Source of the DNA: Octopus sinensis
Lineage: Eukaryota
NCBI RefSeq assembly: GCF_006345805.1
Contig: NC_043014.1
Span: forward strand, 18,166,001-18,230,000
Direction of reading: 5' to 3'
DNA length: 64,000 nucleotides
A model generated the notes under the pieces. It ran no database searches and had not been told where the DNA came from. It was given only the letters and a program-made list of their open reading frames with translations. Shown here piece after piece: positions 37,171 to 60,623 of this stretch. The position numbers and the translations under genes were made by a program. Position 1 is the stretch's first letter; the number at the start of each line of letters is the position of its first letter.

Positions 37171-37580
37171 GGTTCAGTCATTTGACTGCCGCCATGCCTG
37201 AAACTGCCTTTAGTCGAACAAATCGACTCCAGGGCTTATTCTTTGTAAGCCTAGTACATATTCTGTCGGTAACTTTTGCCGAACCGGTAAGTTACGGGGA
37301 CGTAAACACACCAACATCAGTTGTCAAGCGATAGTGGAGTGAAAAACACAGACACACAAACAAAAATATACATACATACATATACATTGATTGCTAGCCA
37401 CTAAACCTTTTATTATTTTTTCCTCTCTGTTTATTTATGAGTTCCTTTCTGTTGCAGAGCGTAGGTTCGAAACGTAAAAGACTTTCTCATTCCTCGAACG
37501 TTAAACTAATACATCCGTTTGTTGTTTACACACCCATCTTCGTCTTTTGTTTTGTTTGTTTGTTTTTTTTTGTAAATTCC

Positions 37581-37614
<34 letters not shown>

Positions 37615-37776
37615 GACGGGCTTCTTTCAGTTTCCGCTCACCTAATCTACTCACAAGGCTTTGGTTCGCCCGAAGCTATAATATAAGACACCTGGCCAAA
37701 TTGCCACGTAGTGGGACTGATCCCAGAATCATGTGGCTGAGAAGCAAGCTTCTTACCACACGCCCACACCTGCGCT
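37171..37776 (-). mobile_element. SINE family A interrupted by a ~195-bp insert (37388-37583)
   Basis: 3' part 37171-37370 and 5' part 37612-37776; the insert sits in the internal microsatellite. Confidence 0.8.
37445..37481 (+). ncRNA. Degenerate minimal hammerhead ribozyme motif
   Basis: cttt CTGTTGC A GAGC gtag GTTC GAAAC GTA aaag; same layout as 53083-53117 but the core is mutated. Confidence 0.5.
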
Positions 37777-38024
37777 TATATATACATATACGCAATGTAT
37801 ATTTATGTATCTATATCTATATAAACATACATATATACATATACACAAACATATACCTATACATACATACACATACATATATAAATTATATATATATGCA
37901 TACATATATATATACATATATATATGTGTGTGTATATATATATGTATATGTATACACCCCCCACACATATATATATATATGCTAAATGAAAGACGGAACA
38001 TGGAAGATACGAGCATTTTTATTA

Positions 38025-38127
38025 ATCACGACAATTGTTCCAACATATCTAGTATCAAACCCTCGCGGGTGGAATACTTAACTGGTTCAGAAGTAACCGA
38101 CGTTGCAGATATGTCTCTTGGGGTGAT
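38025..38127 (-). ncRNA. Decayed type I hammerhead with long stem-II insert
   Basis: ATCAC CCCAAGA GACATATCT ... AGATATGTT GGAA CAATTG TC GTGAT: all three stems intact, core mutated. Confidence 0.5.
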
Positions 38128-39333
38128 AAAGAGATATAACTTGTTTAAATAACAGTTCCACAATATATCTTCTCATTTCGTGTGAAGAAAAGCAGCAAAA
38201 GGAGAACTTAATTCATCCATACCTTAAAACAAATTATGTTAACTGTTACTCAAACTCATTCTCAAATGCATTGTGCGAAAGTACATTTACATGAACGTAG
38301 GCATCTTTCAGAAATTCTCTCAATGATCTTCTCATTGGTCCACAGAATAGAAAGGGATTCCTCGGAGCAGAATTGGCATCTCCTGGAAGTGATGTTTTAT
38401 GGTAATGCGTGCCTTATACACTCACACACATATATACCCCTCCCATATATATATATACATACACACATTTTATTGAAGTTTATTGAACAGCAGCTCTTTT
38501 GTCGGTTACATACAGTGAGTGTGTATATTTACGAGCTTGTGCGCGCCTGTGCGTAAATTTTGATTGCAGAAGCCAAAGTTACTACTTACAATTTCACTCC
38601 GTGGAGTTTTGGTTTCAGGCGACTAAATTCAATAACTTCCTAATAGTATTGAGTACAGTTCCTCTCGTTCATTAATTAACCTTGTCGTACACACAGAAAT
38701 AGATTTATAGTCATATATACATATATATATATGTAATATTCCTTGAACAACCTCACATCTGTTTTGTTTTAGAAGACAAGACGAAATCAAAACGTTCAAA
38801 TGTTTAAATGTCTAAGTGTCTAAGTGTCTGCATGTTAGAAGTGAAGAAGTATTTGTTGAAATGGAATGACAATCAAATGTTTGTCGTATCAGAAATAAAC
38901 ATTCACCGGTGTTTTCTCCTGAGGGTTTTGACAGAACAGTCACATACAAACAGTGGTTTGACGTTCAGAAGTTCGCTTTTTTGAAGTTTTTATTTTGATA
39001 TGTTTCGTGTTTTTTCCTTCTTCTTTATGGTTTTGCGTATGTGCAAGAGTATATGCATGTGTGTGTGTGTGTTTGTGTGTGTTTGTATATGTGTATTTGT
39101 ATCTGTGTTTATAAGAACCGTGTGTTTGTGTTTTTGCAGGTATATGCGTGTTTGTTGTGTGTGAACATATGTGTTTGTGTTTATGTATGGTGCAGTTAGT
39201 ACACAAAATTTTAATTTTGTCACTGTATAATCTGAGGCCAGGTTCGATCGAATAGGCCTATGAGCTAAAGCACTCTAGCCGTGACCATCTCATCTTCACA
39301 TACAAGTTTATCTGAGACAATATTATCAAGTTT

Positions 39334-39730
39334 AAGGCGGCGAGGTGGCAGAATCGTTTGCACGCCGGGCGAAATGCTGAGCGGTATTTCGTCTGCCGTT
39401 ACGTTCTGAGTTCAAATTCCGCCGAGGTCGACTTTGCCTTTCATCCTTTCGGGGTCGATTAAAATAAGTACCAGTTACGCACTGGGGTCGATATAATCAA
39501 CTTAATCTGTTTGTCTGTCCTTGTTTGTCCCCTCTGTGTGTAGCCCCTTGTGGGCAGTAAAGAAATAGTTATTTCAGCTGTTTTTACGTTCTGAGTTCAA
39601 ATTCTGCCGAGGTTAATTTTACCTCTCATCTTTTCGGGGTCGATAAATTAAGTACCAGTTACGTACTGGGGTCGATCTAATTGACTGGCCCCTTCCCTCA
39701 AAATTTGGGCCTTGTGCTTAGAGTAGAACA
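39334..39730 (+). mobile_element. SINE family C, well preserved, with duplicated core
   Basis: aaggcggcgaggtggcagaatcg head; the ttctgagttcaaattc...ggggtcgat...taagtaccag core occurs twice. Confidence 0.85.
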
Positions 39731-40337
39731 GTATATCATTAAGTTTTAAATGGAAAAAACCTGTAGAGTTTGATTTTATAAAGCTACAATATTTTTTAAA
39801 GTTTGGGGGACTACCCAGTGGTTAACTTAAGATAAAGAGAAGCAAACTTGTCCTCCAGCAGATATATCTCTTACCACAGGCTCATTCTTTTGACACCCCA
39901 TCCCCATAGTCTCCACTGTCAAAAACGGCGTGTTAGTGGGCACATTTTAATTAAATTTAAATGTATAGGTCCAGCAAACACATTTAGCTGCGTTGTGCCA
40001 AATTATCGAATTTTGTCGAATATCATGGTATCTAGAATTATGAGTAGCGACAAATGGTATATTCATATTTGTGTCTGTATGTATAATTCTAATGATATAT
40101 ACATACATTCATAATACATACATATATACATACATACACACACATATATATATATATGTATGTATGTATGCATGTATGTATGTATGTATGTATGTATGTA
40201 TGTATGTATGTATGTATGTGCATATAGTTACTTGTAACTTCATATGATAAAGTGTTCTCTGAGGATCCGTTGTGGTCGAGTATCTATATGAATTTGGAAC
40301 TTCTATCGCAGGGCTTTAAACCAATATACTTGTGAAA

Positions 40338-40620
40338 TCTCTTATTATAAAAGGCAGATTTTATCTGCCTCCCTTTGGGAGTTATAGAAATCTACAATAT
40401 AGGATTTCTTCAATTACAATTTACCTAGCATTTTTAAGAGTACAATGCATCGCGTCATGCCAGGTCCACTTTTTAAAATTTAAACTCCAATTAAGCAAAA
40501 TTTACAGAAAACTCACATTCTGGTGTTTGTGTCAAATGCTTTTCTTAGTCTGGTTTACACCACACGCAAACGCACACACACAGTGGGCAACGAATAAAAT
40601 GAAAGTAATTCACTTACTGT
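40338..40620 (+). mobile_element. Helitron-like 5' fragment
   Basis: A|TCtcttattataaaaggcagatttt, homologous to 7125. Confidence 0.55.
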
Positions 40621-40844
40621 AGTGAGTGATTCTTTCACTCTGCCTCCCACTTCCTCTTTCCACACATAGACACGCAAATATATAAATAAAATTGTAAGCT
40701 AACGTGCGTGTGTGTGAGTGTGTGTGTGTGTGCGCGTGTGTGTGTGTGTGAGGGTGCGCGTGTGTGTGTGTGTGTGCGTGTGCGTGAGTGTGTGACAGGA
40801 AAGTTTTTACGACGAATATAACACCTATATCCAAGTAGCAGAAA

Positions 40845-41212
40845 AAGACAGTAAGGTGTGATTTGAGGGAGATTTGGTTGCTATTTCTACCATGTCTAGC
40901 TGCCATGTAGGGGTCTCCCTCATAGGCTCATACATACATATATACATAGATAAGACAGTAAGGTGTGATTTTGGGGAAATTTGGCTGCTATTTCTACCAG
41001 GTCTAGCTACCATGTAGAGGTCCCCCTCATTGGCTCATATATATATACATACATAAGACAGTAAGGTGTGATTTTGGGGAAATTTGGCTGCTATTTCTAC
41101 CAGGTCTAGCTACCATGTAGAGGTCCCCCTCATTGGCTCATATATATATACATACATAAGACAGTAACGTGTGATTTGAGGGAGATTTGGCTGCTGTTTC
41201 TCCCAGGTCTGT
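40845..41212. repeat. Tandem array of ~103-bp units derived from a dispersed repeat
   Basis: Units start at 40845, 40952, 41055 and 41158; single copies of the motif occur elsewhere (e.g. ~12895, 14640, 29980). Confidence 0.9.
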
Positions 41213-41571
41213 TAGGCCTTCTCATGTAAACTCAAGCTTTCTCATGCCTTGAACATAAGACCAAAGCAGAGAATGTATTCTTTTATTCTTCTGCTTTTTC
41301 CAGCCATTGGTCTGTGGCCATGCTGGGGCAATGCCTTGAAGAATTGTAGTTTAATGAATCAACTCCAGTTTTATTTTTGTAAGCATTGTACTTATTCTAT
41401 CTGTTTCCTTTGTCAAACCACTAGGTGACAGGGATGTAAACAAACCAACATTCGTTGTCAAGCAGTGGTGGAGGACAATCACAAGCACAGACACGCACAC
41501 GCACATACATGCATACACATATACACACATACATACATACATACATATATATATATGTGCGTATATATATA

Positions 41572-41895
41572 TTGCAGCGTGGAAGGTGTTTGTAAGCCAT
41601 TTAAGAAACACACAAAAACCGTTACATTCACTTCAACATATAAATTTAATTTGCCAAAATATTTTCGTCGCTTTGAGACCGCGACCTGTTCACTGACAAA
41701 AATATCGTGCTAACAGGTCGCGGTCTCAAAGCGACGAAAATATTTTGACAAATTAAATTTAAATGTTGAAGTGAATCTAACGGTTTTTGTGTGTTTCTTA
41801 AATGGCTTATAAACACCTTCAACGCTGCAACTGTTTTCGTTCCAGCACACGATCTCAGATCAAGTGACTTGCTATGCAAGTACATCTCTGTAACT
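41572..41895. mobile_element. Foldback element (119-bp inverted arms), probably derived from a Penelope-like pLTR
   Basis: Arms 41572-41690 and 41712-41830 with 5 mismatches and a 21-nt spacer. The tail has a cacacga motif like the PLE end at 60538. Flanked by (TA)n. Confidence 0.8.
41650..41700 (-). ncRNA. Hammerhead-fold motif with G3:C8 swapped core
   Basis: TTTGTCA GTGAACA G GTCGC ggtctcaaa GCGAC GAA AA TA TT T TGGCAAA. Confidence 0.65.
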
Positions 41896-41902
41896 ATATA
41901 TA

Positions 41903-41975
<73 letters not shown>

Positions 41976-42038
41976 TGGTAAAAACAGTAAGATAACAAAA
42001 GAAAGAAAGAGACCTCAATATTATGTAAATAGAGGAAA

Positions 42039-42433
42039 TCTTTATATATAAAAGTGAGGTTGTGTGTCTGTCTCCTATGATTTAGATTCCTAACTACTCC
42101 CACATTTTGCGGTGCAGTTTGACCAAAACCGGGTATCTTATAGTCGTGATTCATATCGAGACCGTCTGGGTATTAGCGCGCGTCTACGATGAGTCTACGA
42201 TTTAAAAAAAAATTTACCATCAATTTTTCCCATTTTTAATCCATTTTTGACATATATAAGGGAAGTAACTCTCTAAAATTTATTATTAAATCTCAGAACG
42301 TAAAAAGCTACAGTAACACACCTCCCCCTTTGTGGTTAGCCATATTGAGATGGCTATTATACTTTACATCTCTAAAAATGCTTATATAATTATTTCCCTT
42401 ACAAATCCGAGCAACGCCGGGCGATACTGCTAG
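42039..42433 (+). mobile_element. Non-autonomous Helitron
   Basis: A|TCtttatatataaaag start; ccgagcaacgccgg hairpin followed by CTAG|T at the end. Confidence 0.88.
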
Positions 42434-42711
42434 TGCGTAATATAAACTTGTCTTAATTTTCCTATGCACACACACGCACGCACTATCGCGCGCTTGCGCG
42501 CACACACACACACATATACACATATTTTCTTATATGTGCGTATGTGTGCGTGAGTGGAGAGGGTTTTGACAAACATCTATGTTCTGTTGTATAGTTACAG
42601 TCGGAAACCCTATCAACAACTGTATAAGAATTCATCTAGATGGGACCACTTTATTCTCTCATGGCGGCCCTTTTTTCTTTCTTTTATTGATATTCAACAT
42701 TATCATCATAT

Positions 42712-42930
42712 TCTTCTATTCTTTTATTTGTTTCAGTCATTTGCGGCCATACTGGAGCGCCACCTTTAGTCGAAGAAATCGAGTCCAGGACTTATTCTTT
42801 GTAAGCGTAGTACTTATTCTAACGGTCTATTTTGAGGAACAGCTAAGTTACGGGGATGTAAACACCCCACTATCGGTTGTCAAGCGATGTTGGGTGGAGG
42901 ACAAACGCACACACACAAACATACACACAC

Positions 42931-42995
<65 letters not shown>

Positions 42996-43153
42996 CGACA
43001 GGCTTTCAGTTTCCATCTACCAAATTCACTCACAAGTCTTTGGTCGGCCCGAGGCTATGAGAAGACACTTGCCCAAATTGCCACGCAGTGGGACTGAACC
43101 CGGATCCACGTGGTTGGTAAGCAAACTATTTACTACACAGCCACTCCTGCGCC
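42712..43153 (-). mobile_element. SINE family A, full length
   Basis: Homologous to 24465-24871. Confidence 0.88.
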
Positions 43154-43201
43154 TATGATAATATTTTTTATTAACATTTGAAGATAATATGTATATATAT
43201 A

Positions 43202-43271
<70 letters not shown>

Positions 43272-43680
43272 CGTTTAACTTGTCGGAGTACAATAAAGAA
43301 GTAAACCACCCAAATTATCTCTCGTCGGTGAGAAAGTGTCTATGTAATGTATTCGCTTGACCTGCTAAAAACAGCAGCTAGACTGTCGCGAATATCCAAC
43401 AATTATGTTCGATTAGGTGGCCCCGGGTTTTTTGCATATAAGAATAAGTTAGGATGAATATGGTTGAAATAATTTGATCATAGGTGTCCTCCTAATGTTA
43501 GTCCACTGTTTGGCTGCGAGCTACACGACCAATACTTCCCGGTGAGTATTTTCTTTTCCCCTGTACCAGTTTCAATTAAAAATATGTTATTTTTATCGAA
43601 CCGTTTCGAAAGATTTCTGCAAATCCATAACGAATGATATTAATAAAATGCATCGATGGTTTTCAACATTGGGTAGCCAT

Positions 43681-44120
43681 GAAGCAGTGAGTTGGCAGAA
43701 CCATTAGCCCCCCCAGACAAAATGCTTAATGGCATTTCGTCTGATTTCAAATACTGCCGAGGTCGACTTTGCTTTTCATCTTTTCGGGGTCGATAATTTA
43801 ACTACCAATGAAACACTGGTGGTTGATGTTATCGTCTAGTCCCATTCCCGAAAATTTCCGGCCTCGTGCCTTTAGTAGAAATGATTATTATTGTTATTAT
43901 TAAAGCAGCGAGCTGATAGGAGCTGATAGGGCGCCGGGTAAAATTCTTAACGGCATTTCGTCTGTCTTCAAGTACTGTGTTCAAATTCCGCCGGGGTCGA
44001 CTTAGCCCTTCATATTTTGGGGTTTGATAAAATAAGTACCAGCTGAGTACTGGGAGTCGATGTGATCGATTTACCCTCTCCCCCGAAATTTCCCGCCTTC
44101 TGCTAAAATTTGAAATCTTT
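43681..44120 (+). mobile_element. Two head-to-tail SINE family C copies
   Basis: Heads at ~43682 and ~43902, separated by (ATT)n. Confidence 0.78.
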
Positions 44121-44760
44121 AATGGGTTGCCGGAAATTTTCGCTCATTTTTAACAATTTATTTATTTTAATCCTTTTCAATGTTATTTGAATTTTCATGA
44201 AAAATATTTTTATCGCAGTAGTTTACATTTTTCATTTGTAGTTCTTTTCTTACTCTACGATTTTTGTTTATCGTTTCCGAATGTGAATAAATTTTCATTC
44301 TTTTCAGACATATGACGATAGCGTATCAAGTAGAAAAGAAAGGAAAAATCCACCAAAATATCCACCAAAGACGAATGGAATTATCTGACAAACCATTAAA
44401 TATATAGAGTTTTACGAGTAACAGTTTTATTGTCCATACACACACACACACATACGTGTGTGTATATGAAAATAGGTTATAATTCAAAAAGCAATGTAAT
44501 ATATAAAATTCCACCTGCCTACGGTAGTAATTCTCGTATTGTCGCTTGAAGGATCATTCCTGTTACGGAATGAATTACCACCTCCCTACAGACCTTCGAA
44601 CACATGTACATACATGAATATATAAATACATACATGCATATATGTGTGTGTGTGTACATGTATATATATATGCATATATACACACGTGTGTGTACATGTA
44701 TATATGTATACACATATACACACATATATATATACGTATGTAAATACATATATGTGTATT

Positions 44761-44807
<47 letters not shown>

Positions 44808-47740
44808 TGGTATATATATATTTGTATATGTGGGTATATGTGCGTGTATGTAAATATATCAGAGAGAGGGAGATGGCAGAGAGTGAAAGAAAAATATATA
44901 TGTGGATGCATATATACACACATATTCAGAGATGCGTACATTCAGCCTATCTACCTACCTACCTACCTACATACATACATACATACATGTATTCTATCGG
45001 GCATGTATAAAACGTTTGTAATTCAAAACGTTTGAAAGCAAAGGAACAACTCTGTTATTTTCCCATTATCGTGGTTTCGCTTCACTCGCTATTACACCTC
45101 ACATGAAGCAGAAGAAGTCACTAAGAAGACGAGGTACATAAAATATATATTCACTGAATCCTTAACATTTTCACGTTATTTATATAGTTTTATTTATTTG
45201 CTCCCCAAAAGTCATATGACACGCCCCATCGTGTCACATTCCTACTTTAGATGGTAAAATTCTAATTCTCTCACTTCTAAAACATGAGCAAGATACAAAG
45301 GTACGAGTGAGCTTTTATGCGATCGCTCATTTTACTAGAAATACCAGTAAAATTTTCCCGAAACAGAACCCTTCATTCTTAAAAAGGGAAGGACACAGAG
45401 AACAGCGTTGTTCTAGATATGCAAACAAAAGTCACCACTGACCGGTCTTTCGCTCATTGTGCAGGTAAACCATATTTGAATATGTATGTACTAAAACGAC
45501 TGATATAGTTTCCGGAGATAGACCAGTATTTCGTCCTTATATTTTGTTTGCAAAATTCTTGATATGAAATCGTGTGTTGAACTAAATTTTGTTTCATCAC
45601 CGGAGGGTCATTGCATCAAGAGTAAACACACACGGTGGTTCTGTTTAACTTCTTTATTCATTTGTCACTTGGCTAACTCTTTTCTCAATTAACTAATCAA
45701 TTGTTTGATCAATCATTTGGAGCAGAGAGGGCATGCTATTGATTAGGTTGCGAATGAAGATGAAAGGATTTCTGCAAACATGACTGATTGAGTTATTAAC
45801 AGAACGGTTAATCAAACATCGATTAATTGGTTAAATAATAACTAATTGACAAATGATAATGAAGTGAAATTGAATTAGTGTGAGAGAGACCAAGAGAGAC
45901 GGAGAAAAACAGTATTTTATCATGGAATAGATTTGCCCCTATTGCTTCGTGCAGTGTTTTGTTTTAAAGTAGATCGCCTTATCTAACATTGTCTCATGAC
46001 ACGTGATTGTTTTCAGTCCTTAGTCACCAGATTATCTTATGTTACCGGAGACTGACTCTCATTCGTTTAACATAATTGAATTGAAATTAGGCGATTGTCT
46101 TTAGTATTTTCTCATTCCTTAGTAAATATTTATATTAGATTTACAGAACTTCAATGACGTCTCATCACATGCATTTCGAGGTAATAGACATATAATTAAC
46201 TCAGGTATAGTGATGCAAACGGAAAACAAAACTAGGACATAAAATATGAGTGTATGTGTATTTTTATTAATCTTTAGCAGAAGCAGCCGAATGACTCAAG
46301 GGCCGAGAGTTTGGTGCGTTGAGAGTGACTCAAGGGCGAGAGTTTGGTGCGTTGGCACGCTAGTCATAGTGGCTGTTCCAGCGCACCTCCCTTGACACCT
46401 TTTGTCTCCTGGGTCCATGAGGCAGAAAATTGTACGTCTAGTCCTAAAATACTTAGATCCTGTGAGATGCTGTCTTTGTTAATTTTTCTTAAATTCTAGG
46501 CTTTGTTTCTGAAATAATGTATTAAGTTACCTCTCTTGATTTATTAAGTATTGGCTAATGTGGGTTTTTTTCAGTAACACGTATCGAAGATAAACCCGTA
46601 CGCAAGCCACTTATGTTGAATTTTATGACTAGATTTATTTATATTTTTATTATTTGAGACGACGGGAAAACAACTGTTGTTGTATATCTAATGTCATCTT
46701 CCAGTTTACCTTACGTTTATTTATTGATTCATTTACGTTCCACGTCCACCTTTACGCGTTTAATAGTGTTTCCCATTTTACAGTAGGCGGACATATTTCA
46801 TTTACAGAATCCAAAAAGATGGTTAGATGATAAATAATACAAACGAAAATAAAACAGAAAATAATGAAAATAAAAAGAAAGGAAAAAAAAGAAATGTTGA
46901 TTGGTGTCACTGATAATGTTGAGAAAGTTTTGGTGGACACTGATCAACACCAAACAATGATTGCACTGCTCGATCACGCCAGGCGCCATATTATCTGCAA
47001 ATGTCTCCGTAATCGTATATCATAACTATAAGGTGTGTCTTTCTCAAAGATGTCGAACAGTTCTGATCTGGAAAAATCTGAAATGGAATACATTCTGTTT
47101 TATCAACTCAAACATTTCTGAGGTAAAGGAAGAATATACGATAGCATAGATGATGCGATAACAAAAATTGTTTGTTCATTTTTGTCTGTATCCTCTTTGC
47201 TATTCTGATGATCTCAGCTTTGACATGTTGACACAGACAAATGATAAGCTGCTGTCACTCAATCAAATGCAATCCATGTATGAGGATTAACCACTGAGGA
47301 CGCCTCTACATAGACACTCCAAGCGCTAGAAATAGCAGTTAAATGACAGAAGAACTACATATTATCACGTTGGAGAATGACACACCTTGAAAGGATATTT
47401 CGTTAAATTATAGCGCTGGATAAATTATCCGAAGATATGATGGAATGTCGGTGGCTGGAATGTTTGAATAAAGAGGCGCAGGAGGCGAAACAACGAAAAT
47501 AAGTAGGGAGAGAGATTTTTCGATAAAAAGTAAGTTATACACATAAAATGTAGGCTTCAAGAATTTTCCGTAGTACTTTTAAAAATATTACTTACAATGT
47601 GTGCATGTGTGTGTGTGTGCGTGTGTGCGCGTGTGATTGTGGGCGTATATTTGTGTGAGTGTATGTGTGCGTGGGCGCGAGTCTGCACGCATGTATGCGT
47701 CTGTGAGTACATGTTATATTACACACGCACACATTAGAAA

Positions 47741-48223
47741 TAGAAGCAGTATGAGAAGCAAAAAATAGTGTTTATACCCCCACTGTTATGTGGGTGTTGT
47801 CTAAGGGACAGCGGTTCTACAATTTTAACCCCAGGAAGAATCTCCTCCAGATGGTTTATTCAGTACACTTTCCACACGCGATATTTATTGCAAGCGGGAG
47901 ATAACTCTTGCCATCCTAGTTTGAAAACACCAGACCACGTGATTTCGATCTTACTGGATCTCTTCAGTGGTGGGCATTTGTTTGCCAAGCATGGCAGCAG
48001 TTTAACCTCGCTTGCAGTATATAAAAAATACAGTGTTTTAATTACCGATTTTGTATCTTCCTCTAGTCCGTTAGAAAATCTCTGTTTGAGATAGAAGCAG
48101 TACACGAGTCAAAAGGTAGTGTTTATCCCCACTTTAATGTGGGTGTTCTCTAAGAGACGTCGTCGCTGCAGTTTTAACCCGAGGAAGACATCTTCAGCTC
48201 TCGAACAGAAATTTTCTAACGGA
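47741..48223 (-). mobile_element. Retrozyme-like element: 351-bp unit plus partial second unit
   Basis: tagaagcagta...tgtgggtgtt...ttttaaccc.aggaaga repeats at 47741 and 48092. The unit contains a canonical hammerhead and no credible ORF. Confidence 0.65.
47928..47972 (-). ncRNA. Type I hammerhead ribozyme, canonical core
   Basis: CACCA CTGAAGA GATC cagtaa GATC GAA ATCA cg TGGT C TGGTG: stem I 5 bp, stem II 4 bp, stem III 4 bp (one U.G), GUC triplet. Confidence 0.88.
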
Positions 48224-49989: not shown

Positions 49990-50350
49990 ATTAAGCTCCC
50001 TCGTTCCGGATTTCCTGTGGAGGGCTTGCTCCCTTAGCCATTTTATTTAAACGCTCGATAAATTACCCCATAAGACAGCAAAAGTTTATTATTGTAAGTA
50101 TGGTTTGTGCTGAGCCAGCCCCGCTCTCCTGCAACAAGTAACCACGAGCCCAGTAGTCACCAGGATGTAGATTTTATTTAAAGTTCTCTTTTCTTAGGTC
50201 AGCAGCTAAAGAACTGAAAGGCTTCATATGCCCTGGGTCCGTTTGAGTACCTGCGAGTGAGGTTCCTCCGGAAGAAATTTCGTGACGCGCAAATTTAACC
50301 TATTGGTACTACTACTCAGAGTAGACATGAGGAGAGCGGAGTTCAAGAGG
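49990..50350 (-). mobile_element. Possible RTE-type LINE 5' UTR remnant
   Basis: Weak resemblance (tagctgctgacctaagaaaagagaac on the minus strand) to the RTE 5' UTR motif; no ORF. Confidence 0.25.
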
Positions 50351-51351: not shown

Positions 51352-51402
<51 letters not shown>

Positions 51403-52818
51403 TTTCTTGCCAGCAGAGTTGGGGGTCTGAAGATACGCCGTAAGGCTACACCCCTTATGAGCGAGAAAACCCGGGTAAGTCCATAAACCAACCTATATAT
51501 ATATATATATACATGCTTGAGTGAGAAAGGCAAACAGAGCAAGAGCAGACTAGAGAATATGAGGAAAGAGAAGAAAAGAAATATTAGAAAGAGATTGAGC
51601 CCAAAGAGAAATGGGAAAGTGGAAGAGAAAATATTTTACTTGGAAAAGACAACCAATGCTACATTTGAAAATTGTTATTAGCTAATTTCCGCTGTCTGCC
51701 ATATTATTTTGACCATTTTCTATAATCATCTAATCAATTCTTTTACTAATATATAAAATATCATAATTATCTTCCTGTATTTTCCTTCTTTTTCGGGGAA
51801 CATTTTCGTTATTTTTTTCTATCTTATATCTTTATATCTTTACAGTTTTGAAATACATTTTGCTTTCCTTTTCGCCATTTTTATAGGAAAACATTTCATA
51901 TATTTTTCTTTCTTTACGAAGTTATTTCTAAATTTTTGTTCGCAATATTTTTAGCATAAATCCATATTTGCTAATTATTAATTAAACACCACTACTATTA
52001 ATTACTTCTTTCCTAATTTTTTATATTTATATATATTTTTCGTTTCTCGATATGAAAAGAGAAAACAAGATATCTTCAGGAAGGAAATATTATTATTTTT
52101 CAAATGGTTAATGAATCATATTCATTCCATTTATAATCTCATTCGAATTGAAGCTGACCTTCTAATTATCGATATTTATCATATTTCGCTGAGTGATTTG
52201 ATTAGCGACCATTATCCGGCGATAGATATAATAATTGATGTCACTCTTAATAAGTTTCTCACTTGGCTAATATACTACGATTTTCACTGAATATATTGTA
52301 CTGCTTAATAATTTCTTATATTGGAACAAGTTCGTATATGTTCAAGTATTAGTTTGAATGAAATGGCTTCAATGTATGACTGGTACCATTTCTCATTGAT
52401 TCGAGACAATAATTTCAGTTTGATTCGAATCCAAAAGAAGATTTAAATATTATTTGCTTAATCTGATGTTTTATCGTAACAGACAGATAGAGAGAAAGTC
52501 AGACAGACAGATAAATAGATAGAAAAAGAAATAGCGAGAGAGATATGGAGATATGTAGAGAGAGAGAGAGAGAGGGAGAAAGAGAACGTGCGTGTGCATG
52601 CGCGCGTGCCAGGATAAGAAGTGCAGGCGTGATGTACGGTAAAGATGTTGATTTCCAGACAACACGATTTCGAGTTCAGTCACATTGTGTAGCACCTTGT
52701 GAAACGTCTTCTATTGTAAACTTAGCCCACCAAAGTCTTCCGGCTCAAGCCAACAGAGAAAACGTGTTGGCTTGGATTTGATAGATGAAACACACACATA
52801 CACACATACACACGCACA

Positions 52819-52882
<64 letters not shown>

Positions 52883-53082
52883 GTTCAATAAAACCTTGAA
52901 TTGCAGTTAAAAATATAAAATAAAGGAAAATGCGCAGAAATTGTATCTTGGACAATATATATATATATATATATATATAAAGTTAATCCAAACATGAAAA
53001 CACAAAAAGGAAACACAACAACGCGAGGACGTGGAACAAATATAGTGTTATTGGACGCTCAGGAAGGAAGGGAAGAAGGAGG

Positions 53083-53117
53083 GTTTAACGTTTCAAGCAG
53101 AGCTCTTCGTCAGAAAC
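53083..53117 (-). ncRNA. Minimal hammerhead ribozyme in a ~150-bp insert (52979-53132) within (TA)n
   Basis: GTTT CTGACGA A GAGC tct GCTT GAAAC GTT A AAC; palindromic AACGTT stem III. Confidence 0.7.
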
Positions 53118-53143
53118 ATAGGAAAAGGAAAGATATATATATA

Positions 53144-54751
53144 CAGTTGCGGCCAAAATGTTCAGAACGGCATTGTTTTCAGCAGAAAAGTAGGTATAAG
53201 TTTTTATCAAAGTTGTTTTATATTCTATAATTTTCACAGACAATAAATACGAAATTATTTGTTATTGCTGAGATTTTGGTGTAATTTGAGAGGATAGTGC
53301 AAAAGTTATGTATGATTTAGTGATTTACTGCAAAACCAATGGCGGCCAAAATGATCAGAACGGTTGCTTTTACTCCGTGTTTTAGTTTATTTAACCGGCG
53401 AACTCTAATGTTTTGAATTTGTTTACGTGAAGGTTCGTTTACTAAACATTAATAAGAATATCTGCAGTGTATTTTGTTAATATAATGCTACTTACTCCGT
53501 TAGCAATTCGTCAGCAGATTATTAAGCTTCGAAGGAAAGATAATTTAAGTATTGGGTCTATTGCAAAGTTTGTTAACAAGTCAAAAAGTGTTGTTCACGG
53601 TATTCTTAAGGTCTACGATGATTGTGGTTCGTGTGAAACAAGAAAGTTTACAGGTAGGCCAAGAAAAACGACCAAGAGAAAAGATCGTGCTATGGTAAAG
53701 TTGGTTAAAAAGGACAGATTTAAAACTGCTGCTGCTGTTTCTCGGGAAATGAGCATTGTGCTGAAAAACTGTCTCGTCGTTTAGTTGAACATGACCTACA
53801 AGCAAGAGCACCTGCAGTGAAGCCACTGATTAGCTCCAAGAATAAAAAGTGTCGTCTTACCTTTGCAACCGAACATGTGTTGTGGTCTCAAGAAAAATGG
53901 CAAACGGTGCATTTCACTGATGAATCTAAGTTTATGTTATTTGGCTCAGATGGCAAAAGGTACGTTCGTCGAAAAGTAGGTGAAAAATTGTCGCCTAAAT
54001 GCCTTACGACTAGTGTTAAATTCGGTGAAGGAAGTGTCATGGTTTGGGGGATGATATCTGGAGATGGTGTGGGCTCTTTGGTGCGATTACATGGAAAGGT
54101 AACTGCAGTAGTTTATAAACAACTTGTAAAAGATCATGTCTTGCCTGTGCTGAGAAATTCAACTAAGCGACCACCCATATTCATGCAGGACAATGCCCCA
54201 TGTCACAAGGCTAAGGTGGTCATGAACTTCCTCAAGGCTGAAAAGGTTATTGTTATGGATAGGCTTGCTCAAAGCCCAGATCTCAATCCTATTGAAAATG
54301 TGTGGAATATTCTAGGAGACGGTTCGAAAGTCAGAAATCCTAAAAGAACCGAGTAATTATGGAATGCCCTTCAGGAAGAATGAAATAAGATCACCCAGCA
54401 ACAAATTGAAAATTTAATTTCCTCATGCAGTCGAAGATGTCAAAGTGTGATTGAAGCTAAAGGGCTTCACACTAAATATTAAATAATTCCAGTATTCTCT
54501 GTCATTTTTGATTATTTTGTTATATTTCAACCGTTCTGATCATTTTGGCCGCCATGGGTTTTGCAGTAAATCACTAAATCATACGTAACTTTTGTATTAT
54601 CCTCTCAAATTACACCAAGATCTCAGACAATAACAAATAATATTGTATGTATTGTCTGTGAAAATTATAGAATATAAAACAACTTTGATAAAAAAATTAT
54701 ACCTACTTTTCTGACGAAAACAATGCCGTTCTGAACATTTTGGCCGCAACA

Positions 54752-54752
<1 letters not shown>
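53144..54752 (+). mobile_element. Full-length Tc1 (DD34E) element with ~220-bp IR/DR terminal repeats
   Basis: TA-flanked. TIRs 53144-53366 and 54528-54752 each carry outer and inner gcggccaaaatg(t/a)tcagaacgg repeats. Confidence 0.96.
53485..54482 (+). pseudogene. Tc1 transposase, disrupted
   Basis: GRPRKTT, FTDESKF, VMVWG, FMQDNAPCH, SPDLNPIENVW (34 residues between D and E). Frameshift at ~53760-53815 and stops at 54354 and 54381. Confidence 0.95.
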
Positions 54753-54786
<34 letters not shown>

Positions 54787-54979
54787 TACACGACGGGTTT
54801 CTTTCAGTTTCCATCTACCAAATCCACTCACATGAATTTGGTCAGTCCGGAGCTATAGTGGAAGACACTTGGCCAAGGTTCCACGCAGTGAGACTGAACC
54901 CGGAACGATGTGGTTGGAAAGCAAGGTTCTTACCACACACATGCATATATATATATTATATATATATATATAATATATA

Positions 54980-55012
<33 letters not shown>

Positions 55013-55452
55013 CACAAACATATATGCGTGAGTGTGTGTGTGTGTGTGTGTGTATGTGTGCGTGTATGTGTGTGTGTATACCAACCCTGTCTCCATCAAA
55101 TGTAGTTTTGCAGTCAAAGAAATAATAAACACTTTGTGTTGGACTCGTAATATTCTCTCTCTTACCTTAAATACAACAATTAATATTACAGTTTCCCAGG
55201 TAACAAATGTTGTATTGAAGTAAACAGTCCCTCTTCACAATGCAACTTATCGTACTTATATTTTAGTATACATTTAGTGTTTGTTTTACATTGTTGAACT
55301 AAAATGAAATGGGAAAGTACATTTTACACTTGATTTTGTTTGTAGTCCTCAAATTTTACGTTGGTTGAGATTACATGGACTGTGTAATCTATATAAAAAA
55401 CCTGATCTGTTGCACTTGTAGGTCGTAATATATACAGAAGCCACTCATGTAT

Positions 55453-55487
<35 letters not shown>

Positions 55488-55538
55488 AAGACACTGACAC
55501 ATATACATGCAAGATACACTTTCACCCCACCATATATA

Positions 55539-55579
<41 letters not shown>

Positions 55580-55965
55580 AACACACACTCACATATATAT
55601 GTGCTACACAGTGGGACTGAACCCGGAACGATGTGGTTGGAAAGCACGCTTCTTACCACGCTGCCACGTCTGCGCCTATGTATATGTATATGTGTGAATA
55701 TATATATATTATATATATATTGGTATGTATGTATGTATGTATGTATGTATTAAAATGACGATTTAGATAGAACCATGCACTTGAAAATGTATGCACCAGA
55801 TAGGGGGTAATCTCTGTGGTTACGACTTATGGCTAGTGAGAATCAAAGTATCAGATGTACACAGAGAAAACCAACCCAATGAGTATTGAGGCTGGTCCAA
55901 ATCACGCGTTACTTTGAATAGTACGTTGTTGGTATACTCTAAGGTACCCGACAAGTCGTAAATTC

Positions 55966-58310
55966 CACTGTGCATATAAGTAAAATCATTGTATTCTACC
56001 CAGACAAGTTGTACTGTACTTAACTAATTCCAGTATGCTGATTTCAAATCTGAACTCAGAATTGCTATAGCGCATCAGGATTTTGAGTTATACACATAAT
56101 TATATATCAATACTATATTAGTATTAGTTACGTATTAGTTACTAATACTATATTAGTATTAGTATAGTTAAGCTCAAGGTAAATAATCATTATAATAGTA
56201 TATTAGTACTTTATATAGTATATTTACGTTCAAGGCAAATACTACTATAATATAATGGTACATAGTATATTCAGGTTAACGAATAACTCACTTTATTTTT
56301 TATATTCTCAGCTCAAAATATTTGAAACACTTGCTCTTCCGCTTGTGCGTCGTGCTGGTCTCCTGTTGTAAGAACCAGCAGTGGTTACCCATCATGTGTG
56401 GATTGAACCAGCATTGATACTTCGTTTCCATCTCAGATATGTCCTGGTGGTACCTCTCACCATGCCCGTCACTAACGGCACCAAGATTCGTTGAAAAAAA
56501 AATCGAGATGAGAATGCAAGAAGGACATTTTAAGGGACATTCGGCATCCCATTCTTTCATATGCTATTAAATCAGCATATTTTTCAGCTTTATGATTTCA
56601 AAGAAAGTTCTGTACAATGAATGAATCCCATGCCGTCATCTCAACTGGATTCAATTTATCTCTGAATTTGCTATCAGACATCAATTCTCTGATCTGAGAC
56701 CTAATGAAAATGCCTGCTTTCAGTTTTGCGTCACTTTTCTCTGCATCAAATTTTACTTTCAGGTACTGAAAGCCACAACCTGTGTCATTGCTTTTACGAA
56801 GTTTTCCATGAGGCCGAGTTTGATGTGAAGGGGTGGAAGGAAGATCTTTTGTGGGCCTACCAGTAGTATATGTTGCACATTGTACCGACCAACTATGCAC
56901 TCACCTCTTTTAGGCCAATCTTTTACAGTGCAATGATTGCTGCCATCGTGGCTGTTCCAAACACACCAGAAACGCATACTTTTGGTATATCCCAGCTGCA
57001 GTCCCATTAATCATCACAAATATTCCACTTATGAACTGGTTAATTGACTCCTTTCAGAATGGGCTCCATTGATTCATAAGATTCTTCCTTACCGACAACA
57101 TGACCCGCAGGAATAGAAGTTTTTTTTCATTAATATTATGTAACAACATAGCTTTGAGGCTAACCTTGTTCGAGTTTATAAACAGTCTCCATTTGTTAGC
57201 CACATGCACGTATCCTACTTTTTGCATGAGTGCATTAATGTCAGTACAGAAACGAGCATTATTTTCTTGCTTGAGAAAGATAGATAAGCCCCCATGGTGA
57301 GAATAGAAAAGAGAAATGTTCGTAAGGAGATTCTGTTGCTGTAGTCTGGGTCCAAAACTTCTGCTTTCTCCTTTGTCAATGCTAGGCCACTTACTAAATC
57401 ATTAAAATCTTGATTAAACAAGCGTGGCTCATTTTTCTTAGCATCAACTATGTACTCTTCGTGAATAGGAGAATCAGTGTTCATCGTGCGACGTGTCATG
57501 GTCTTCAAGTGAGAGGGGACCTGGGAGAGGGTTCTCGAATTCATGTGGGACCGGATTTAGAGCCGACTTACAATCTGCATACCCAATTTTTTGCTTTCGT
57601 TTTCTTTGAGAAACCGCCATGCAAAAGTAACAATCAGGGACATGATTGGTTGGCTCATGCCATACCATTGGCATTCCCATCCGTTTTCCATTCAGCCACT
57701 GCGTAAACCCCGAGTAACACATGGTGCAGCATATATGAAGTGTTCATCTCTTGTCTTGATCCCCAAATTTACGCCCGAAATAATATTTATAGGCAGTTTT
57801 TAATTTGGTGGTAAGGTTCTTCTGCTGGTTACGCGGGAAAAATTTCCCACAGACATAATAAAAGTTGCCTGGGTGATTCACACTGCCTCTCCTATTCATG
57901 ATCAAACACAATGAACACAGTTAAAACAGTAATCACGCAGAGGAGAGATACACACTCCACACGTGACATCAGCGTAAACGACACTGAGAGTAACCAAGAA
58001 CAAACTCAAGTATTCGGCGCTTGCATACAATATGTCAGTTCCATTTATTGTTAAGCTAAATAGTGAACTTTCTCATCGTTTGTTTTATTGCTGTTATTTC
58101 TTTAATTTTGAATTAAAACCGCTTTCATTTTAGCAAATTTTATCATACGGTCTATATCTATCCTAAAGAATAGTTATGATCTTGCACATACACATAACTC
58201 AAAATCTTGACGTGCTAGACTAATTCTGACTGCGAATTCGGAATCAGCATTCTCGATTTAGTCTGGAGTACATGCTTTTACCCCGGTAGCAAAATCTTTG
58301 TTGTCCAGTG
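55966..58310 (-). mobile_element. Near full-length Chapaev-3-like DNA transposon, disrupted
   Basis: CACTG...CAGTG ends with ~120-bp imperfect TIRs. Transposase 57899->56300: NFYYVCG, PMVWHEPTNHVPDCYFC, PVPH, LQLGYTK, LPPLHIKLGLMENFVKAM, NLGAVSDGHGERYHQDI. Confidence 0.88.
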
Positions 58311-58339
58311 CAATCAAATGAATAACATATGATAGATAA

Positions 58340-58646
58340 AGCTGTTTATTACGTAACTTTTTATAGAAGAATGAGAACATTACTGCATCACAAAACCGTA
58401 ATCATGAGATGAGAAGTAATTTTACAAACAAAAGAATATGCCAACTATAAATTAAAATATGAAATGGGAGAATGCATTCTCCCGTTTCATGGACTCCTGG
58501 CACATTTCATACACTCCAGTTACATCCCGGCTGTATTCCTGGGATATTCTTTTGCTTGTGAATTTACTTCTCATCTAATGATTATGGTCGTTTGTAATGG
58601 AGTAATGTAATCATTATTTTATTAAAAAGTTGCGTAAGAAACAGCT
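58340..58646. mobile_element. Foldback MITE
   Basis: ~100-bp inverted arms (58340-58443 / 58539-58646) plus a 32-bp internal palindrome at 58459-58490. Confidence 0.8.
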
Positions 58647-58691
58647 ACAATGGGCTGACAATTATCCCTCGCATGATATTATTCATTTGAT

Positions 58692-58723
<32 letters not shown>

Positions 58724-59076
58724 CATATATATATATCAATAAGCCTTGGCCTTATGGCCCTAAACGTCTGTCTTCGTCGATCGTTTCCGTACATCCCATC
58801 TGGTGTCGTTTTTTCGTTCACAGCCCTGATTCTCCACAAATTTTATTGTTTTAGTATTTCTGCATGTCTTATGAAGTTTTCCTGTCTTGTCGTTAAAAGC
58901 ACTAAACAGGTAGTAATAAACAGTCGACAACCAAGGAGGAGTTAGACTATTTTGGTATTTTGTCCCGTACTTGACTCCCGTTGTGTGTTTACGTAATTTT
59001 CCCTCGTTGGTGATGTCTTGTACATAATATGCATTTTTCGTTTTCATACATACATACATACATACACACCCGCGCC

Positions 59077-59110
<34 letters not shown>

Positions 59111-59111
59111 A

Positions 59112-60582
59112 ATATTGTTATATTTCGGAATGGTCATTTTGCCAGTTTAGCCAATAAAAACACACGCACTATATATTTGGTGTTATTTTGCTTCAGTGTT
59201 ATTTATTTTTTACATTAATCTTAATCTTATTTCGGCCAGAGTTCTTTCGTCACACTCCTGTGACCGCATCAGTGGTCCTTTGTTTTCTTCTTTCTTATTT
59301 GTGTCTCTCCTTACTAACCGTCAGCCATTTTGTATTTCTATTGTATGTCTTCATTTGCGCATGCTTATATCTCTATGTGCGTTTATGTTTATTTAGTGTG
59401 TGTATGTGGGGGGATGCCTGTAATATTTGTATCTTCTGTTTATATATGTTCATGTAATTTGTAAGCTAAGAATTAAGGTTGTTGAAAAGCCAGGCAACCC
59501 TATCAAATCTATAATTGGTAGAACCTATCCTTTTAGTAGAACCCCCTGTACGGATAAGTACTGTACTGTATGTAGATTTAGCCCACAAACAAACTGTAAA
59601 GCCAGAAATGTAGTACATAGTATAAGATGTATAGAGGGACGATGCAGTAAGAAGACAATGACATACGTAGGGGAAACGGGAAGAAGCATAGGAGAGCGGG
59701 TAAATGAGCATTGGAGACAACTCAAGGAAGGTAAAAGCTCATCGATTCTGTACCAACACGCCGAACAAGAACACGGGGGATCAATCAATAACATAGAAAT
59801 TAAAATATTATCCACACATTGATCAGATGCAACAATTAGACAAATTACAGAAGCTACACACATAATAGAAAATAAACCTAGCCTGAATAGAAAGCTAGAA
59901 TGGAGCACTAACACACACCAAAACATATGACGATAGAGGATCCTGAAAACATAATAACTACACAGATAAATAAACTAATAGAAATAAATAACTATATTAT
60001 ATATATAATATATATATATTCGATTCAATTTATTATTATTATTACTAGTATTGTTGTTATACATACATACATACATACAAGCATATGTAATGATAATAAT
60101 AAGTGGATGTAAACACATGAATAAAATAAGAATAAACAAAAACAAAAACAACAAAAACAAAAAACAAAAAGCAAAATACAAATTACATGAACATATATAA
60201 ACAGAAGATACAAATATTACAGGCATCCCCCCACATACACACACTAAATAAACATAAACGCACATAGAGATATAAGCATGCGCAAATGAAGACATACAAT
60301 AGAAATACAAAATGGCTGACGGTTAGTAAGGAGAGACACAAATAAGAAAGAAGAAAACAAAGGACCATTGATGCGGTCACAGGAGTGTGACGAAAGAACT
60401 CTGGCCGAAATAAGATTAAGATTAATGTAAAAAATAAATAACACTGAAGCAAAATAACACCAAATATATAGTGCGTGTGTTTTTATTGGCTAAACTGGCA
60501 AAATGACCATTCCGAAATATAACAATATCTGTTTCAACACACGACTTCACATAAAATAATCTTGCACAACAAATATTTAAAC
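59112..60582 (+). mobile_element. 5'-truncated Penelope-like element with inverted pseudo-LTR
   Basis: 352-bp inverted repeats 59112-59463 and 60177-60528 flank a GIY-YIG coding fragment; (TA)n on both sides. Confidence 0.9.
59466..59930 (+). pseudogene. PLE linker plus GIY-YIG endonuclease fragment
   Basis: CTDKYCTVC...CKARNVVHSIRC...YVGETGRSIGERVNEH...LYQH...H, one in-frame TGA at 59820, then RQITEATHI..KPSLNRKLEW. Confidence 0.9.
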
Positions 60583-60623
60583 GTATATATATATATATTT
60601 ACATATATATATATATATGTATG

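What the first reader, a model, noticed from the sequence alone, without database searches (positions are those of the whole stretch)
37388..60582. Six different hammerhead-bearing small elements within ~23 kb, mostly in TA/CA microsatellites
Seen: HHR folds at 37445, 38025, 41650, 47928, 53083 and 59234/60362. Their stems are largely unrelated and their cores differ (canonical, G3:C8, C9, decayed). Most have very short, palindromic stem III. Established: Penelope-like elements and metazoan non-LTR retrozymes carry type I or minimal HHRs. Inference: a diverse ribozyme mobilome mobilised by PLE proteins and targeting microsatellites, possibly cleaving or circularising host intronic RNA. I cannot tell whether these families are already catalogued.
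Basis: partly seen in the sequence, partly recalled or inferred. Interest (0 to 1): 0.75.

Follow-up and report, generated by a model that had tools for sequence, protein, structure and literature searches.

The report
Penelope retrotransposon ends with variant hammerheads
The six hammerhead-shaped RNA motifs are real and sit in abundant repeats of a known kind (four are cut-off tail ends of protein-coding Penelope-type jumping genes, a fifth likely is, and one is likely a non-coding retrozyme repeat), and the twist is that several families carry unusual core letters in hundreds to thousands of copies, which are predicted to slow self-cutting but are untested.

Summary
All six folds are at the stated coordinates and each belongs to a repeat family of this octopus-like genome. 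They are not a new class of small elements. Four are 5'-truncated 3' ends of protein-coding Penelope-like elements (PLEs), traced to RT or GIY-YIG frames; a fifth likely is; the sixth is a 350-nt tandem-unit retrozyme. The 41650 copy did not insert here by itself: it rides inside a 2.1-kb Helitron (492 exact copies of its centre). Density is about what the genome background gives. No host gene was found, and insertions do not start at the cut site, so action on host introns is unsupported. The point of interest is family-wide non-canonical cores: G3:C8 (93 of 100 copies), U6 (100 of 100, with positions 7 and 17 free), C9 (the younger, larger subfamily), and C4 with a 58-nt loop II. Within-family covariation does not exceed shuffles. 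Cleavage is untested. The scan already noted G3:C8 and U6 on other DNA; the key 2017 catalogue of PLE hammerhead variants could not be read.

The parts
37386..37584 (+). Site 1: 3' end (about 200 nt) of a PLE with a Neptune/Nematis-type zinc-finger linker; ends in (TA)n
   Evidence: 40 scored hits at 86-91%; longer copies reach a GIY-YIG-type frame 630 nt upstream of the motif in L238, 30% identical over 77 aa to the site-6 parent endonuclease, E 1.5e-7; no Pfam hit of its own
37445..37480 (+). Minimal type I hammerhead; family core has U at position 6; this copy also has a private A9C
   Evidence: 10,847 exact matches of the 35-letter family pattern; U6 in 100 of the first 100, all four bases at position 7, A or U at 17; A6 form 130 matches; A9 in 26 of 27 aligned copies
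37982..38416 (-). Site 2: 3' end of a Hydra-type PLE with an internal deletion of about 270 nt; includes the C-terminal endonuclease remnant (38205-38416)
   Evidence: CxCX5C linker, CxxC and CxH motifs as described for Hydra; GIY-YIG E 0.02, below cut-off
38025..38127 (-). Type I hammerhead with 9-bp stem II and about 58-nt loop II; family core C3 C4 G5 A6 N7 G8 A9; this copy has lost G5 and A13
   Evidence: 50 aligned copies: position 4 C36/T13/A1, position 7 A22/T14/C12/G2, position 17 C28/A14/T7; 91% of stem cells paired, covariation not above shuffles
40338..42433 (+). Non-autonomous Helitron-type element (2.1 kb) that carries site 3 as cargo
   Evidence: 29 other loci share the span at 90-96%; 3' CTAG followed by T in 30 of 30, 5' TC found in 26 of 30 and preceded by A in 24 of those 26; 492 exact copies of the palindrome centre
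41572..41893 (.). Site 3: head-to-head pair of truncated PLE 3' ends (119-bp arms) with a tail on the right arm only
   Evidence: parent has a 717-aa RT + zinc finger + GIY-YIG frame about 1 kb upstream of the motif (L351)
41650..41700 (-). Minimal type I hammerhead with swapped core pair G3:C8; partner on + strand (41712-41752) is cut inside the core
   Evidence: 6,441 matches, G3:C8 in 93 of the first 100; C3:G8 form in the same context 0 genome-wide; predicted to be buried in a -84 kcal/mol hairpin here
47734..48193 (-). Site 4: non-coding 350-nt unit, 1.3 units long (110-nt direct repeat, 78% identical); retrozyme type; old
   Evidence: 21 of 30 loci show a direct repeat at 335-359 nt spacing; GC 42%, longest frame 82 aa; relatives 73-81% identical
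47928..47972 (-). Type I hammerhead with canonical core, 4-bp stem II and an extended stem I; the best candidate in the window for an active copy
52980..53132 (-). Site 5: 3' end (about 150 nt) of a short repeat built like the site-1 end; abuts a Tc1 transposon (about 53144-54752)
   Evidence: 40 scored hits at 95-97%; 1,142 exact matches of a 21-letter upstream word; no parent reading frame found
53083..53117 (-). Minimal type I hammerhead, canonical core in this copy; family split U4/C4
   Evidence: position 4 T14/C13/G1 in 28 of 30 genome-order copies
59112..60584 (.). Site 6: 5'-truncated PLE (59462-60584, + strand, GIY-YIG remnant 59462-59822, 56-nt tail) preceded by an inverted 352-nt copy of its own end (59112-59463)
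   Evidence: arms 100% complementary; longer copies carry RT + GIY-YIG, 629 aa in L004; tail seen
59234..59278 (-). Minimal type I hammerhead with C at position 9
   Evidence: 2,782 matches; about 83 C9, 16 A9, 1 U9 in the first 100 by hand count; C9 copies younger
60362..60406 (+). Second copy of the C9 hammerhead with a private C3U change

Best explanation
Four of the six motifs lie in 5'-truncated 3' ends of protein-coding Penelope-like retrotransposons, a fifth likely does, and the sixth lies in a likely non-LTR retrozyme; the window copies are likely inert passengers, while in the parent elements the motif is predicted to be a slow, dimer-dependent self-cutter that insertion likely does not need. 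Steps: (1) shown: each motif sits 50-200 nt inside a fixed 3' end that abuts (TA)n, and longer copies extend into RT/GIY-YIG frames; (2) inferred from published PLE biochemistry: the endonuclease nicks (TA)n, reverse transcription starts downstream of the hammerhead and usually stops early, which leaves hammerhead-bearing stubs, inverted pairs and one-sided tails; (3) shown: one inverted stub was captured by a Helitron and multiplied about 500 times as DNA; (4) shown: family cores differ (G3:C8, U6, C9, C4) and these states are family-wide; (5) inferred: selection keeps the fold but tolerates weak cores, with G3:C8 likely still cutting and U6, C9 and C4 likely much slower.
For: Parents: site 6, site 3 (56% identical to the site-6 parent over 630 aa), site 1, site 2. 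Inverted copy plus one-sided tail and (TA)n bias are described PLE traits (PMC8557442 passages). Helitron capture; 4 of 30 genome-order copies are in the Helitron. Fold kept under selection: between the related site-3 and site-6 families the 3:8 pair, one stem I pair and one stem II pair change on both sides; in site 1 the two non-CpG columns that split into subfamilies are positions 7 and 17, the two free core positions; positions 7 and 17 also vary in site 2. Cutting not needed: 5' ends within 2 nt of the predicted cut in 0 of 29, 0 of 30 and 1 of 30 genome-order copies; C9 copies diverge less from their subfamily than A9 copies (median 2.6% for 20 against 6.0% for 13, Mann-Whitney P 0.0006); in a lizard PLE the C3G/G8C double mutant partly restores cleavage and dead mutants still insert in vitro (PMC11167929 passages).
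Against: No cleavage was measured. Within-family covariation is not above shuffles (417 of 500 and 126 of 500 shuffles reach the observed share of paired cells). No parent frame was found for site 5; the GIY-YIG frame upstream in L348 belongs to another PLE with its own end. Pfam scores of the parent frames are below curated cut-offs and the site-1 frame has no Pfam hit. Clade names rest on motifs, not on a tree. 14 of 29 site-3 copies start 55-61 nt upstream of the cut, which could mean a short transcript of its own. The A9/C9 age test used 33 copies from one contig, picked by an exact pattern. One loop-II subtype differs between the window copy and the intact site-3 parents.
Confidence: 0.82

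Rival explanations
1. The U6, C9 and C4 families carry dead ribozyme relics: the motif no longer does anything and the odd letters drifted to high copy number with successful master elements.
For: In a full pairwise scan every single change in the CUGA turn gave low activity and only the G:C swap rescued (PMC9901934 passages); A6C cuts far slower in Mg2+ (PMC7151607 passages); the C9 form is the younger and larger subfamily; no cut-site footprint; no within-family covariation.
Against: In site 1 the rest of the core and both stems stay fixed across subfamilies that differ at positions 7 and 17; G3:C8 needs two matched changes and the single-change forms are rare, 7 of 100; U4C keeps a viroid infectious (PMC3088659 passage).
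Confidence: 0.3
2. The fold is kept for a non-cutting job, such as a binding site for the PLE protein or a translation or packaging signal, so stems and most core letters are held while catalytic quality is free to fall.
For: Conserved fold with weakening core changes in three families; insertion does not need cleavage in vitro; the motif overlaps the start of the reading frame in a lizard PLE.
Against: No binding or translation data here; G12 and G5, the letters that matter for chemistry, stay conserved in all six families, and stems differ freely between families, which fits catalysis as well as binding.
Confidence: 0.2
3. One reading: a set of independent small ribozyme elements, moved in trans by PLE proteins, that cut or circularise host intron RNA.
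For: Site 4 is a non-coding, more-than-unit repeat; site 5 has no traced parent and many copies begin near one point; site-3 5' ends cluster.
Against: Four families extend into coding frames; some site-5 copies extend further upstream; one copy is Helitron cargo; no host gene family among 140 of 204 candidate frames scanned; sites 3 and 6 would be locked in 119-bp and 352-bp duplexes if transcribed through.
Confidence: 0.1
4. The folds are chance matches in AT-rich repeat DNA.
For: Taken alone, four of the seven copies score at chance level or are missed in a loose scan; no Rfam hammerhead row seen.
Against: 4 strict hits against 0.01 in shuffles; each family majority has core, three stems and G10.1:C11.1 in the right order at the place where PLEs carry hammerheads.
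Confidence: 0.02

Closest known systems
Minimal type I hammerheads (min-HHR) in pLTRs of metazoan PLEs (Cervera and de la Pena 2014, PMC4209133; read: main text parts 1-2 of 4, supplement parts 1-2 of 3)
   Same: Type I topology, short or absent palindromic helix III, extra base after position 9, G10.1:C11.1, several unrelated families per genome, mostly single motifs from truncated PLEs, pairs on opposite strands 100-700 bp apart.
   Different: Core rows seen in their Figure S3 read CUGANGA or UUGANAA; none shows G3:C8, U6, C9 or C4. No cephalopod in the rows seen.
EN+ PLEs of the Neptune/Nematis type (Craig et al. 2021, PMC8557442; read: passages, section 11, one supplement part)
   Same: RT followed by CX2-5CxxC linker and GIY-YIG endonuclease, 5' truncation, inverted 5' copy, one-sided tail, (TA)n bias (sites 1, 3, 6).
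   Different: Assigned by motif only; no tree built; families not compared with Repbase or Dfam.
Hydra clade PLEs, including Hydra-1_oBim from Octopus bimaculoides (PMC8557442, section 11 and supplement S1/S2)
   Same: CxCX5C linker, CxxC and CxH motifs around the endonuclease C-terminus, (TA)n target, hammerhead near the 3' end with a longer stem III (site 2).
   Different: The listed Hydra hammerheads, including the octopus one, have canonical cores and loops II of 3-10 nt; site 2 has C4 and a loop II of about 58 nt. Loops II of about 30-35 nt are listed there for two plant PLE-X elements.
Non-LTR retrozymes (Cervera and de la Pena 2020, PMC7229834, passages; Li et al. 2026 preprint 10.64898/2026.07.22.740005, part 1 of 5)
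   Same: Non-coding unit of 350 nt, GC under 45%, type I hammerhead with canonical core, more-than-unit genomic copies; mussel units are 350-390 bp (site 4).
   Different: Mostly 1.1-1.8 units, not arrays; old (73-81% identity); circular RNA not shown; no octopus in the passages searched.
Natural hammerhead core variants U3:A8, A6C, U4C (Perreault et al. 2011, PMC3088659, section 8 and passages; PMC7151607, passages)
   Same: Changes at the same positions 3:8, 4 and 6.
   Different: Those are rare single cases; here G3:C8, U6 and C9 are majority states of repeat families. G3:C8 appears in the papers read only as an engineered mutant (PMC3884650, PMC9901934, PMC11167929).
Lunse, Weinberg and Breaker, small hammerhead variants associated with PLEs that cleave as dimers (PMC5785218; not held, seen only as a reference)
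   Same: By its title, the same class of motif and the dimer mechanism.
   Different: Could not be checked; it may already list some of these core variants.

Membership tests
Type I (minimal) hammerhead ribozyme | Three stems around the core in type I order, G10.1:C11.1, A15.1:U16.1, H17 | tested here: met
   All six family majorities; 86% and 91% of stem cells paired in sites 4 and 2 against 16-48% when partners are slid
Type I (minimal) hammerhead ribozyme | Canonical core CUGANGA / GAAA | tested here: not met
   Met for site 4 and half of site 5; not met for sites 1 (U6), 2 (C4), 3 (G3:C8) and most of 6 (C9)
Type I (minimal) hammerhead ribozyme | Covariation of stems | tested here: inconclusive
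   Not above shuffles within sites 2 and 4; two-sided changes between the related site-3 and site-6 families read by eye
Type I (minimal) hammerhead ribozyme | Self-cleavage after H17 with a cyclic phosphate | not testable with these tools
   No assay; only contigs were available; no genomic footprint
EN+ Penelope-like element | Single frame with RT then GIY-YIG endonuclease upstream of the 3' repeat | tested here: met
   Sites 3 and 6 both domains; site 1 thumb/linker/endonuclease part; site 2 fragments in broken frames; site 5 not found
EN+ Penelope-like element | 5' truncation, inverted 5' copy, one-sided tail, (TA)n target | tested here: met
EN+ Penelope-like element | RT phylogeny within the PLE clades | not tested
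   No reference set on hand; clade names from motifs only
Hydra clade (site 2) | CxCX5C linker; CxxC and CxH near the endonuclease end; no CCHH | tested here: met
   Frames in L163, L156, L151, L164 against the description; DKT and RWK motifs not examined
Non-LTR retrozyme (site 4) | Non-coding 170-400 nt unit, low GC, type I hammerhead, tandem or more-than-unit copies | tested here: met
   350 nt, GC 42%, longest frame 82 aa; 21 of 30 loci with unit-spaced direct repeat; two complete motifs in tandem seen in L123
Non-LTR retrozyme (site 4) | Expressed as circular RNA | tested here: inconclusive
   Four runs guessed to be RNA gave only short pieces of relatives and no joint; contigs cannot show absence
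Helitron (carrier of site 3) | 5' TC, 3' CTAG, insertion between A and T, no target duplication | tested here: met
   (counts under parts); the terminal rule itself is recalled, not from a call
Helitron (carrier of site 3) | Link to an autonomous Rep/helicase partner | not tested
   A PIF1 remnant lies at 8141-8770 but was not linked to this element

The most novel reading that the evidence does not exclude
Octopus PLE lineages have fixed a series of non-canonical hammerhead cores, G3:C8 (over 6,000 copies), U6 with free positions 7 and 17 (over 10,800), a C9 form that overtook its A9 sister, and C4 with a 58-nt loop II, and these remain functional, as slow dimer- or protein-assisted cutters or as structural RNA. 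[quoted passage not shown]
Probability: 0.35. Interest if true: 0.6.

Novelty: new variant of a known kind. Interest (0 to 1): 0.4.

Why it matters
The arrangement itself is ordinary for an animal genome rich in Penelope-like elements. What could matter is the core series. The role of PLE hammerheads is an open question (stated in PMC8557442; dead mutants still insert in vitro, PMC11167929). Here related, recently active families differ at core positions, and one weakening change spread with the youngest subfamily, so a handful of cleavage and retrotransposition assays would show whether cutting is needed. A side lesson for surveys: hammerhead counts in a genome can be inflated by DNA-level hitchhiking, as with about 500 Helitron-borne copies of one stub.

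Tried and rejected
Rfam scan: no hammerhead among the 150 rows shown of 262; the rest were not seen. Loose single-sequence scanner: only 2 sites stood above 12 shuffles. Cut-site footprint in 5' ends: absent in three families. Within-family covariation: not above shuffles; an inner structure for the site-2 loop II (two alternative stems, a small hairpin with a GNRA-like loop) has only one-sided changes and is unresolved. Idea that site 3 is a self-spreading hairpin element: rejected, the 99% identical copies share 2.1 kb of flanks. Idea that sites 3 and 5 have a fixed 5' end: rejected for site 3, weakened for site 5. Parent frame for site 5: not found; the frame in L348/L349 belongs to another PLE. 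Host gene: only transposon domains and two weak hits among 140 of 204 frames; short exons could be missed. tRNA scan: none. Sequencing runs: no RNA holder listed on record; site-4 laying gave short pieces only. Literature on the variants: search for hammerhead with G3-C8, G3 C8, A6U, A9C or U4C (14 of 15 listed), hammerhead + octopus + Penelope (4 of 5), Helitron + hammerhead ribozyme (4 of 4), and searches showed no report of natural G3:C8, U6 or C9 families or of Helitron-borne hammerheads; the library lacks most subscription papers, Lunse et al. was not held, and figure panels and unread supplement parts may bear on this.

Full report
Setting. The window is G000:C18:18166001-18230000 in a 2.72-Gb animal genome. 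It is rich in TA, CA and TATC runs, and 42% of it matches other fetched loci. I call it octopus-like by inference from the repeat make-up and earlier scan notes; no call names it.

Observation. A strict descriptor, written after seeing the sites, gives 4 hits against 0.01 in 100 shuffles; a looser scanner separated only 47928 and 41650 from 12 shuffles. The copies at 37445, 38025 and 60362 are damaged and are recognised through their families. Five of six elements end in (TA)n, while about 5% of window positions are in or beside such a run. The density is near background: after dropping 18 hits from 25 loci chosen for the site-3 family, 16 hits remain in about 504 kb of flanks, some not independent; that predicts 2.0 per 64 kb.

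Site 6 (59112-60584). A truncated GIY-YIG frame is followed by a 3' region with the motif and a 56-nt tail; a perfect inverted 352-nt copy precedes it. Longer copies carry RT and endonuclease in one frame (629 aa in L004; RVT_1 E 2.4e-4, GIY-YIG E 0.004, both under cut-off). This is the layout described for PLE insertions (PMC8557442 passages). Position 9 is C in about 83 and A in 16 of the first 100 of 2,782 matches (hand count). Of 34 fetched copies 33 were usable; C9 copies are closer to their subfamily majority (median 2.6%, n=20) than A9 copies (6.0%, n=13; P 0.0006). The related site-3 family has A9, so C9 is likely derived and spread afterwards.

Site 3 (41572-41893). The best 40 hits were 99% identical over 319 nt, but they share 2.1 kb of flanks with TC and CTAG ends inserted between A and T: a Helitron-type carrier. 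Its palindrome centre occurs 492 times; 4 of 30 genome-order motif copies are in it. Free copies are mostly short, often head-to-head, and the longest reach through a 1-kb CA-rich 3' region into a 717-aa RT-zinc finger-GIY-YIG frame in copies 97-99% alike, 56% identical to the site-6 parent. G3:C8 is present in 93 of the first 100 of 6,441 matches and the C3:G8 form in none genome-wide. Against site 6, the 3:8 pair, one stem I pair and one stem II pair change on both sides. In the window the motif is predicted to be buried in the 119-bp hairpin.

Site 1 (37386-37584). A 3' end whose longer copies lead to a zinc finger-GIY-YIG frame. The family core has U6 in 27 of 27 aligned copies (of 30) and in 100 of the first 100 of 10,847 matches; the A6 form has 130 matches. 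Position 7 takes all four bases and position 17 A or U, while the other core letters stay put: the pattern expected if the fold is selected with U6 in place. The window copy adds a private A9C.

Site 2 (37982-38416). A 3' end of a Hydra-type PLE with a deletion of about 270 nt. The family motif has a 9-bp stem II, a loop II of about 58 nt and a perfect 8-nt palindromic stem III. In 50 copies position 4 is C36/T13 and position 5 G34/A10, the signature of an ancestral CpG, so C4 is the family state. The published octopus Hydra element has a canonical core and an 8-nt loop, so this is a different family. The inner structure of the loop is unresolved.

Site 5 (52980-53132). A young 3' end (95-97%) built like site 1, with a canonical core here and U4/C4 split 14/13 in 28 of 30 copies. 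Some copies extend into a long CA-rich region, but no parent frame was found. PLE origin is inferred.

Site 4 (47734-48193). A 350-nt non-coding unit, 1.3 units long; 21 of 30 loci repeat at unit spacing. Canonical core and extended stem I. It fits non-LTR retrozymes (PMC7229834 passages). It is old, and circular RNA was not shown.

Mechanism. Shown: fixed 3' ends at (TA)n, ragged 5' ends, coding parents, inverted pairs, tails, Helitron capture, family-wide core states. Inferred: nicking at (TA)n, reverse transcription from a site downstream of the motif, early stopping. Published work on a lizard PLE found internal initiation, no need for hammerhead cleavage in vitro, partial rescue by C3G/G8C, and no reads ending at the cut site. 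My genomic test agrees: 0 of 29, 0 of 30 and 1 of 30 copies start within 2 nt of the cut. Minimal PLE hammerheads cut slowly and as dimers (PMC4209133; PMC6765202), so single, damaged or hairpin-locked window copies are unlikely to cut host RNA; site 4 is the one intact candidate. Mutant data predict that G3:C8 works and that other changes in the CUGA turn are weak; I found no data for C9.

Against my reading.

Novelty. PLE hammerheads, their family diversity, opposite-strand pairs and retrozymes are published. Natural G3:C8, U6 or C9 families and Helitron-borne hammerheads did not turn up in my searches (and others listed under Tried and rejected) or in the core rows seen in two supplements, but Lunse et al. 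could not be read. Papers seen: PMC4209133 (text parts 1-2 of 4, supplement parts 1-2 of 3), PMC8557442 (passages, section 11, supplement search and part 2 of 59), PMC3088659 (passages, section 8), PMC6765202 (passages, section 11 part 2), preprint 10.64898/2026.07.22.740005 (part 1 of 5), and passages only of PMC7229834, PMC3884650, PMC13282606, PMC6155905, PMC11167929, PMC7151607, PMC9901934. Hammerhead numbering, the Helitron end rule and the Tc1 label beyond its Pfam hits are recalled.

Verdict. Observation confirmed, interpretation partly supported; a known kind of system with variant cores. Interest 0.4.

Noticed in passing
window 60230-60530, run X2: A run guessed to be RNA shows 19 A>G places on the site-6 repeat against 4-5 in three other runs, as A-to-I editing of double-stranded inverted ends would give. 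The runs are from different organisms and only contigs were laid, so this is a weak hint.
   Followed up: no
window 60374: The A9 form makes up 65% of depth in X2 but 7-15% in the three other runs; C9 is present in all four coded organisms. It may reflect the organism or preferential expression; no DNA run of the same organism was laid.
   Followed up: no
L348 about 700 nt after its frame; L243 and L381 flanks: Further PLE-type hammerheads with a U3:A8 core, so C3:G8, G3:C8 and U3:A8 all occur in this genome.
   Followed up: no
window 42039-42433: The 3' 395 nt of the Helitron begins with its own TC start resembling the outer 5' end, so the 2.1-kb element looks like a composite that captured 1.7 kb of upstream DNA, including a 103-nt tandem repeat (40845-41210), a SINE-like piece and the PLE stub.
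   Followed up: partly
window 53144-54752: Tc1-type transposon with about 230-nt inverted ends (94%) and a broken DDE transposase, directly beside the 5' end of site 5.
   Followed up: partly
window 8141-9871 and 32450-33520: Remnants of a PIF1-type helicase (Helitron-like) and of a mariner transposase.
   Followed up: no
window 47817-47856 and 47928-47969: Contigs in four runs match only these two blocks of site 4 and then diverge, pointing to other retrozyme-like families that share a conserved block besides the hammerhead.
   Followed up: no
L201-L230, 55-61 nt upstream of the predicted cut: 14 of 29 site-3 copies start in this 7-nt interval, just upstream of stem I; cause unexplained (transcript start or a stop for reverse transcription).
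   Followed up: partly
L038, L323, L348: Site-5 ends sit in the (TA)n tails of other PLE ends, i.e. nested insertion at the shared target.
   Followed up: no
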